DNA of 59,578 nucleotides from Escherichia coli (lineage in GTDB: Bacteria; Pseudomonadota; Gammaproteobacteria; Enterobacterales; Enterobacteriaceae). The notes under the pieces are model-generated. The model was not told where the DNA came from, made no database searches, and saw nothing but the letters and a program-made list of their open reading frames with translations. Within the stretch, counting starts at the first letter, position 1. Each line of letters starts with the position of its first letter. The stretch lies in NCBI RefSeq assembly GCF_003334255.1, contig NZ_QOWU01000030.1, one strand, 5' to 3'. A program made the translations under genes and the position numbers. Below, in pieces: positions 57,782 to 58,339 of this stretch.

Positions 57782-58062
57782 TCAGGCATGGTGAAATAAT
57801 GGGCGAATGTTTGGGCGAGCAGTTTGCGAAGCAACCCAAAGCTCATACTGTGATTACATACCTGTCCACATTTCGGCGCTGGTTCCGAGTGCTGATTCCA
57901 GACGGAGCGCCATATCCGCAGAAATACCCGCTTTTTCGTTCAGAATCCGGGAAAGCGCCGTGCGAGTAATGCCCAATGCGGTGGCAGCGTCTGTGACTGA
58001 CATATCTCCCAGATATTCACGAAGAACCGCGCCTGAGTGGCGGGATTATGAATACGACTCAT
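57782..58062 (-). pseudogene. Decayed higA-like HTH antitoxin
   Basis: MSRIHNP… then frameshift into …HSGAVLREYLGDMSVTDAATALGITRTALSRILNEKAGISADMALRLESALGTSAEMWTGM* with premature stop. Confidence 0.4.
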
Positions 58063-58072
58063 AGTTATCCCT

Positions 58073-58339
58073 CAATGATAATCCTGATAGTCAACCAGAA
58101 TTGCGTCTTCGCCTTCAAATCGAAAGGTAATTCGCCAGTTACCGTTTACTGATATTTCCCAATGACCTCTAAGATCAGCTCCCTTTAGAGGGTGTAATTT
58201 CCACCCAGGTGCAGACAGACATATCGTCCGGGCGCTTAGCCATATTTAGGGCAGTTAATTGAATACGTAGTTTAACCGCATGTTTGGCCTGAATGCCTGC
58301 GGTTGAACCTGTCTCGAAAAAGTGTTCAAGCAATGCCAC
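58073..58339 (-). pseudogene. Decayed higB-like (RelE/ParE superfamily) toxin
   Basis: …LLEHFFETGSTAGIQAKHAVKLRIQLTALNMAKRPDDMSV then 1-nt frameshift then APGWKLHPLKGADLRGHWEISVNGNWRITFRFEGEDAILVDYQDYH*; no start codon; 5' end overlapped by the upstream 337-aa gene. Confidence 0.4.

What the first reader, a model, noticed from the sequence alone, without database searches (positions are those of the whole stretch)
57782..58339. Decayed higB/higA-like toxin-antitoxin pair with frameshifts in both genes
Hand translation recovers a RelE/ParE-type toxin C-terminus and an HTH antitoxin, but only by joining frames: one 1-nt frameshift in the toxin, one in the antitoxin plus a premature stop, and the toxin 5' end has been overwritten. 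That implies the module was inactivated and then tolerated. The frameshifts rest on my manual reading and must be re-checked against the raw sequence.
Basis: partly seen in the sequence, partly recalled or inferred. Interest (0 to 1): 0.4.

Follow-up and report, generated by a model that had tools for sequence, protein, structure and literature searches.

The report
Dead higB-higA toxin-antitoxin remnant
This is an ordinary, already-annotated dead copy of a HigB/HigA toxin-antitoxin pair inside an E. coli genomic island; four inherited lesions disable it, and it matters only as an example of an addiction module decaying once it sits in the chromosome.

Summary
On the minus strand, 58331..57782 holds a higB-higA operon remnant. 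After frame repair it matches the HigB-like toxin family PF05015 (E 2e-16), Proteus vulgaris HigB structures (E 2.4e-17) and HigA family TIGR02607 (93 bits, cutoff 47.7).

Compared with intact plasmid copies (86-93% DNA identity), four lesions disable it:
- **5' truncation.** The higB promoter and first 9 codons are replaced at a breakpoint at 58330/58331 by a 1.08-kb patch of IncI-like plasmid DNA.
- **Toxin frameshift.** A 4-nt tandem duplication (TGTC, 58214-58221) shifts the frame by a net +1. It is not a 1-nt indel.
- **Antitoxin frameshift.** One G is deleted between 58040 and 58039.
- **Antitoxin stop.** CAA became TAA at 57856-57854.

The same lesions occur in every chromosomal copy among 5,426 complete E. 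coli genomes (9 genomes, two lineages) and in 5 draft assemblies, so they are not sequencing errors. All 34 plasmid copies are annotated intact. RefSeq already annotates both genes as pseudogenes ("frameshifted", "frameshifted; internal stop").

The remnant lies in an eroded, mosaic cargo region of a conjugative-element-like island inserted at tRNA-Phe.

Verdict: confirmed, correctly interpreted, already known, low interest.

The parts
58072..58331 (-). higB remnant: codons 10-93 plus the stop TGA at 58074-58072. It lacks a promoter, a start codon and codons 1-9.
   Evidence: Alignment to intact plasmid higB; tblastn frames; PF05015; PDB HigB.
58330..58331 (-). Recombination joint. The 'GC' here is shared by the higB homology (which starts at 58331) and by the plasmid-like patch (which ends at 58330).
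   Evidence: Every BLAST match to intact higBA starts at 58331.
58214..58221 (-). 4-nt tandem duplication TGTCTGTC (intact copies have a single TGTC). It causes a net +1 frameshift after HigB codon 47, upstream of the codons for His54 and the C-terminal Asp-Tyr-His.
   Evidence: Critical residues are from PMC5027501; the alignment is.
58063..58071 (-). higB-higA spacer containing the higA Shine-Dalgarno region (GAGGGA). It carries one extra T (58067) compared with intact copies.
57782..58062 (-). higA remnant: ATG at 58062-58060 and the original stop TGA at 57784-57782.
58039..58040 (-). Site of the 1-nt deletion. The G of CCCGCGCAC is lost between these two bases, which shifts the frame after HigA codon 8. 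The neighbouring C->T at 58036 gives Pro10Ser.
57854..57856 (-). Premature stop: CAA (Gln70) changed to TAA.
58342..59355 (-). orf337, an intact gene for an uncharacterised membrane protein. It sits in the DNA patch that replaced the higB 5' end. Its stop TAG is at 58344-58342.
   Evidence: Homologues lie directly downstream of nikA/nikB relaxase genes on plasmid contigs.
58330..59410 (-). 1,081-nt patch, 93.7% identical to an IncI-like plasmid contig. It comprises the last 31 nt of a nikB-like relaxase gene, orf337 and 12 nt of downstream flank.

Best explanation
This is a non-functional relic of a plasmid-type higBA type II toxin-antitoxin operon: a HigB ribosome-dependent mRNA endonuclease gene followed by a HigA helix-turn-helix antitoxin gene. 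It lies in the cargo region of a conjugative-element-like island integrated at tRNA-Phe (pheV) in E. coli.

Shown:
- An illegitimate recombination joint with 2 nt of microhomology replaced the operon's promoter and the first 9 higB codons with a fragment of IncI-like plasmid DNA.
- A 4-nt tandem duplication shifts the higB frame ahead of the codons for all four residues critical for HigB activity.
- higA carries a 1-nt deletion and a nonsense codon.

Inferred:
- The toxin or the whole operon was silenced first, most simply by the 5' truncation. That made the antitoxin dispensable.
- Both genes then drifted neutrally and were carried along passively with the island.
- The relic has no activity now.
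For: **Homology.** PF05015 E 2e-16; P. vulgaris HigB 4mct E 2.4e-17; TIGR02607 93 bits against a cutoff of 47.7. Gene order and the 8-9 nt spacer are the same as in intact copies.

**Lesions.** Mapped base by base against four intact copies.

**Inheritance.**
- The identical 564-nt remnant is present in 2 complete and 5 draft assemblies.
- A second lineage, found in 7 complete genomes, is 99.1% identical. In the copy read directly (L003) it shares all four lesions; the other six give the same two-piece 99.1% match.
- All 9 chromosomal copies among 5,426 complete genomes are this allele. All 34 plasmid copies are annotated intact.

**Selection.**
- dN/dS between the window copy and intact copies is about 0.07-0.13, against 0.03-0.07 among intact copies.
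- Changes private to the chromosomal lineage are 10 synonymous, 7 nonsynonymous and 1 stop.
- The two decayed lineages differ by 0 synonymous and 4 nonsynonymous changes: HigB G50R, HigB G71S within the GNW motif, and HigA Y17D. One lineage also has an IS insertion splitting the operon.
- This pattern fits recent relaxation of constraint after a long constrained history.

**Expression signals.** No sigma-70-like promoter was found in 57600-59578 and there was no Rfam match at gathering level.

**Independent annotation.** PGAP calls both genes pseudogenes.
Against: - No expression data exist. Read-through transcription from orf337 is possible, because its stop lies 2 nt before a GTG that opens a 54-codon residual ORF.
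- A 49-codon ORF (58003..57854) still encodes the HigA helix-turn-helix core.
- The order of the four lesions cannot be resolved, because no intermediate allele was found.
- The substitution counts behind the relaxed-selection argument are small.
Confidence: 0.94

Rival explanations
1. The frame breaks are sequencing or assembly errors and the module is actually intact.
For: Indels are a common error type.
Against: - The lesions are a 4-nt tandem duplication, a deletion in a non-homopolymer CGCGC context, a C->T nonsense change and a structural junction.
- All are reproduced exactly in 2 complete and 5 draft assemblies from different projects.
- The three in-gene lesions are also present in the second-lineage copy read here (L003). 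Its junction is at the same position, with one base substituted.
Confidence: 0.01
2. The relic keeps a partial function. For example, the 49-aa HigA helix-turn-helix fragment (Met21-Met69) could be made and act as an orphan repressor or 'anti-addiction' antitoxin against incoming plasmids and P1-like phage-plasmids that carry 86-93% identical higBA.
For: - The 49-codon ORF 58003..57854 is intact in both lineages.
- Intact close relatives circulate on E. coli plasmids and phage-plasmids.
- Co-transcription with orf337 is conceivable.
Against: - The fragment lacks the N-terminal 20 and C-terminal 24 residues.
- Only 2 nt separate the GGAG from this ATG, which is a poor Shine-Dalgarno spacing.
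- No promoter-like site was found.
- In the APEC lineage an IS element separates it from any upstream transcription.
- There are too few substitutions to show constraint.
Confidence: 0.04
3. The frame changes are programmed recoding sites that still yield full-length proteins.
For: None beyond the presence of frameshifts.
Against: - There is no slippery heptamer at either site.
- Neither indel is present in any of the four intact homologues aligned.
- higB has no start codon or N-terminus in any case.
- higA also has an in-frame TAA.
Confidence: 0.005

Closest known systems
HigB/HigA of plasmid Rts1 (Proteus vulgaris), PDB 4mct/4mcx/4px8; Pfam PF05015 plus TIGR02607
   Same: - Same family: E 2.4e-17 to HigB over residues 12-93.
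- The toxin gene lies upstream of the antitoxin gene.
- His54 and the C-terminal Asp-Tyr-His are conserved in the repaired translation (PMC5027501).
   Different: This copy is dead: it has no promoter, no start codon and no codons 1-9, the toxin is frameshifted, and the antitoxin is frameshifted with a premature stop.
Intact higBA on large E. coli plasmids (e.g. pCFSAN004181P WP_024166187/WP_001081196; AHB6 plasmid 3) and on ~92-kb P1-like phage-plasmids (e.g. p1_000533)
   Same: 86-93% DNA identity over the whole 546-nt cassette, with the same spacing.
   Different: Those copies have continuous 93-codon ORFs and their own upstream region. They sit on extrachromosomal replicons, where post-segregational killing can be selected.
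RefSeq pseudogene annotations C6N25_RS09615/RS09620 (strain 2015C-3121) and JFY30_RS13535/RS13530 (STEC2018-553)
   Same: 100% identical sequence, annotated 'frameshifted' and 'frameshifted; internal stop'.
   Different: PGAP extends the toxin pseudogene to 58357, into orf337. The base-level comparison here shows that homology stops at 58331.

Membership tests
HigB-like toxin (Pfam PF05015, RelE/ParE superfamily) | Significant match to the family profile or to solved HigB structures | tested here: met
   PF05015 E 2e-16, model positions 8-91 of 91. 4mct_B E 2.4e-17. Both used the frame-repaired translation.
HigB-like toxin (Pfam PF05015, RelE/ParE superfamily) | Continuous ORF of about 92-93 codons with a start codon and the N-terminal residues 1-9 | tested here: not met
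   Homology starts at codon 10 (58331). The frame breaks after codon 47.
HigB-like toxin (Pfam PF05015, RelE/ParE superfamily) | Residues critical for activity (His54, Asp90, Tyr91, His92 in P. vulgaris HigB) are translatable | tested here: not met
   The codons are conserved in the DNA (alignment). All lie downstream of the 4-nt duplication, so they are out of frame. Residue list from PMC5027501.
HigA antitoxin (NCBIfam TIGR02607) | Score above the curated cutoff | tested here: met
HigA antitoxin (NCBIfam TIGR02607) | Continuous ORF of about 93 codons | tested here: not met
   A 1-nt deletion after codon 8 and a TAA at codon 70.
Functional type II toxin-antitoxin operon | Own autoregulated promoter/operator upstream of the first gene | tested here: not met
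   The upstream region is replaced by orf337 and its 12-nt flank. No promoter-like site was found in 57600-59578.
Functional type II toxin-antitoxin operon | Toxin arrests growth and antitoxin neutralises it | not testable with these tools
   This needs expression assays. Sequence evidence predicts that neither activity remains.
Unitary pseudogene pair (decayed mobile-element cargo) | Clear homology to intact genes, disabling lesions, and vertical inheritance of those lesions | tested here: met
   PGAP pseudogene flags appear.

The most novel reading that the evidence does not exclude
The least ordinary reading the evidence does not exclude: the surviving 49-codon HigA helix-turn-helix ORF (58003..57854), transcribed by read-through from orf337, acts as a chromosomal 'anti-addiction' or repressor element. 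It would blunt the closely related higBA modules of incoming plasmids and P1-like phage-plasmids.
Probability: 0.03. Interest if true: 0.35.

Novelty: already known. Interest (0 to 1): 0.07.

Why it matters
It matters very little on its own. It is a clean, fully mapped example of a plasmid-type addiction module decaying once it is fixed in a chromosome. All 9 chromosomal copies among complete E. coli genomes are dead, while all 34 plasmid copies are annotated intact. The lesion map and the exact mosaic junction could serve as lineage markers for this tRNA-Phe island family.

Tried and rejected
**No matches found**
- NCBIfam gave no hit for the repaired HigB. Pfam and the PDB search did.
- PADLOC gave nothing for HigB, HigA or orf337.
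- PHROGs, Pfam and NCBIfam gave nothing for orf337.
- The Rfam scan of 57000-59578 gave only a sub-threshold chance hit.
- The promoter scan found nothing.

**Wrong assumptions and errors corrected**
- I first assumed the window equals strain 2015C-3121. It does not. That strain has the island at pheU, and the window has it at pheV, closest to STEC2018-553.
- A first dN/dS run used an off-by-one toxin frame and was discarded. It was redone.

**Searches that did not find what was sought**
- I looked for an intact, near-identical HigB or an intermediate allele. The closest cluster representative among 5.8 billion proteins is 92% identical. The contig carrying a 98%-identical orf337 ends right after that gene. 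So the order of the lesions is unresolved.

**Guess not supported**

**Side checks**
- speC carries an internal stop in STEC2018-553 but is intact in the window.

Full report
**Context**

The window is E. coli chromosome. Positions 1-25000 match the tkt-speA-galP region at 100% identity in many strains. A tRNA-Phe gene lies at 35787-35862. From there to the end of the window runs a conjugative-element-like genomic island. It encodes a tyrosine recombinase, a nickase/helicase, a UvrD-type helicase, an IncI-type type IVB pilus operon with a PilV shufflon and recombinase, TraF, an autotransporter tail fragment, the finding itself, a 337-aa hypothetical protein and an IS3-family transposase fragment.

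The closest complete genome is STEC2018-553 (NZ_CP075665.1), which has the island at pheV. Strain 2015C-3121 carries the same island at pheU. The window is not identical to either genome. It differs from STEC2018-553 by a few dozen substitutions and by inverted shufflon segments.

**Observation**

All features of the finding are on the minus strand. Six-frame translation gives these pieces:
- Frame 0: ...ALLEHFFETGSTAGIQAKHAVKLRIQLTALNMAKRPDDMSV, which then runs into unrelated residues and a stop.
- Frame 1: APGWKLHPLKGADLRGHWEISVNGNWRITFRFEGEDAILVDYQDYH*, followed by MSRIHNPA.
- Frame 0 again: HSGAVLREYLGDMSVTDAATALGITRTALSRILNEKAGISADMALRLESALGTSAEMWTGM*SQYELWVASQTARPNIRPLFHHA*.

tblastn with intact proteins confirms the frame switches and the internal stop.

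The frame-repaired toxin matches Pfam HigB-like_toxin PF05015 (E 2e-16, model positions 8-91 of 91). It also matches the solved Proteus vulgaris HigB structures (4mct, E 2.4e-17, aligned from residue 12). The repaired antitoxin scores 93 bits against NCBIfam TIGR02607 HigA, whose curated cutoff is 47.7.

**Lesions**

I aligned the region with four intact copies: pCFSAN004181P, AHB6 plasmid 3, and two ~92-kb P1-like phage-plasmids. The base-level comparison shows the following:

1. **5' truncation.** Homology to higB begins at 58331, the last base of codon 9. Everything upstream is unrelated to higB, including the promoter, the start codon and codons 1-9.
2. **Toxin frameshift.** TGTC is tandemly duplicated (TGTCTGTC, 58214-58221). 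This gives a net +1 shift after codon 47.
3. **Antitoxin frameshift.** One G is missing between 58040 and 58039 (CCCGCGCAC -> CCCGCCAC). This shifts higA after codon 8.
4. **Antitoxin stop.** Gln70 CAA has become TAA (57856-57854).

Minor changes are an extra T at 58067 in the higB-higA spacer and a Pro10Ser change in HigA.

The HigB residues shown to be critical in P. vulgaris are His54, Asp90, Tyr91 and His92 (PMC5027501). They are conserved in the repaired translation. All are encoded downstream of the duplication, so they are out of frame.

**What overwrote the 5' end**

Window 58330-59410 is 93.7% identical to a metagenomic IncI-like plasmid contig, L010. The patch comprises the last 31 nt of a nikB-like relaxase gene, the intact 337-codon ORF (59355-58342) and 12 nt of its downstream flank.

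The plasmid-type sequence ends at 58330 and the higB sequence starts at 58331. The junction therefore shares the dinucleotide GC, which is the signature of illegitimate recombination.

Homologues of orf337 are typically 328-340 aa long and have conserved C-termini, so the gene is complete. In plasmid contigs they sit directly downstream of nikA/nikB.

On the other side of the patch lies the IS3-family transposase fragment (59406-59560). The neighbourhood is thus a patchwork of fragments: an autotransporter tail, the dead higBA pair, a relaxase tail and an IS fragment.

**Real mutations, not errors**

Among 5,426 complete E. coli genomes, 42 carry a related higBA. Nine copies are chromosomal, and all nine are this decayed allele next to orf337. 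The 34 plasmid copies are annotated as intact.

The exact 564-nt remnant recurs in 2 complete and 5 draft assemblies.

A second lineage is found in 7 genomes, mostly from poultry. It is 99.1% identical. The copy read directly (L003) has the duplication, the deletion, the stop and the same junction position with one substitution. It also has a ~0.74-kb internally deleted IS3-family element, flanked by a 3-bp target duplication, inserted between the higB stop and the higA start.

PGAP independently flags both genes as pseudogenes in these genomes.

**Selection**

- Nei-Gojobori dN/dS between the repaired window copy and intact copies is 0.07-0.13. Among intact copies it is 0.03-0.07 ([intact-intact rows], 36).
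- Changes private to the chromosomal lineage are 10 synonymous, 7 nonsynonymous and 1 nonsense. This ratio lies between the purifying-selection and neutral expectations.
- The two decayed lineages differ by 0 synonymous and 4 nonsynonymous nucleotide changes, giving HigB G50R, HigB G71S and HigA Y17D.

The numbers are small. They fit a long constrained history followed by recent neutral drift.

**Mechanism**

Shown: neither gene can be translated in full, and the operon has lost its own upstream region.

Inferred: the toxin had to be disabled no later than the antitoxin. The 5' truncation silences both genes at once, so it is the simplest first step. After it the antitoxin was dispensable, and the indels and the stop accumulated. 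No intermediate allele was found to prove this order.

No promoter-like site and no Rfam family were found in the region. Residual ORFs exist. One is 54 codons, opened by a GTG 2 nt after the orf337 stop. The other is 49 codons and covers the HigA helix-turn-helix. Nothing indicates that either is used.

**Comparison and novelty**

This is a dead member of the HigB/HigA family of Rts1 type (PF05015 plus TIGR02607). Its closest intact relatives are on E. coli large plasmids and P1-like phage-plasmids. It fails the membership tests for a functional module: no intact ORFs and no own promoter. It meets those for a pseudogene pair. Public annotation already says so. The finding is confirmed, correctly interpreted, and ordinary.

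Noticed in passing
window 58342-59355 (minus): orf337 is an intact, conserved gene of unknown function with two C-terminal transmembrane helices. Homologues sit immediately downstream of nikA/nikB relaxase genes on IncI-like conjugative plasmids. It has no Pfam, NCBIfam, PADLOC or PHROGs match. The AlphaFold model is confident (pLDDT 83) but resembles no solved structure beyond the transmembrane hairpin. AFDB relatives are all 'uncharacterized' and spread across Proteobacteria.
   Followed up: partly
window 51499-52245 and 52252-52824: Two segments downstream of pilV are inverted relative to the closest complete genome (STEC2018-553). One of them is also inverted relative to strain 2015C-3121. 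This fits an active or recently active Rci-type shufflon.
   Followed up: partly
window 35787-35862 and onward: The island starts right after tRNA-Phe (pheV, next to yqgA). The same island is inserted at the other tRNA-Phe gene (pheU, next to dicD/dsbD) in strain 2015C-3121.
   Followed up: partly
window 57338-57652 (+): An orphan C-terminal fragment (about 105 codons) of an autotransporter beta-barrel, with its own terminator-like hairpin at 57661-57683. It converges on the higA remnant and is another decayed piece of cargo.
   Followed up: no
window 55969-57171 (+): The TraF-like outer-membrane protein gene is intact here and in STEC2018-553. In strain 2015C-3121 it is truncated by an IS1 insertion.
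   Followed up: no
window 1-78 and 59569-59578: The first 78 bases match an IS1 end, and similarity to the reference island stops 10 bases before the window end, where STEC2018-553 has an IS1. The window looks like an assembly contig bounded by IS1 copies.
   Followed up: no
L003 3418-4159 (E. coli ECCNB12-2 and six other, mostly poultry-associated genomes): In the sister lineage a ~0.74-kb internally deleted IS3-family element is inserted between the higB stop and the higA start. Its inverted repeats start TGAACCGCCCCGGG and it has a 3-bp GTT target duplication.
   Followed up: partly
L007 2475-3046 and L008 2475-3046: Intact higBA copies (86-88% identical) sit on ~92-kb P1-like phage-plasmids, between a maturation-control gene and baseplate/tail genes. 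This cassette therefore also travels as phage-plasmid cargo.
   Followed up: no
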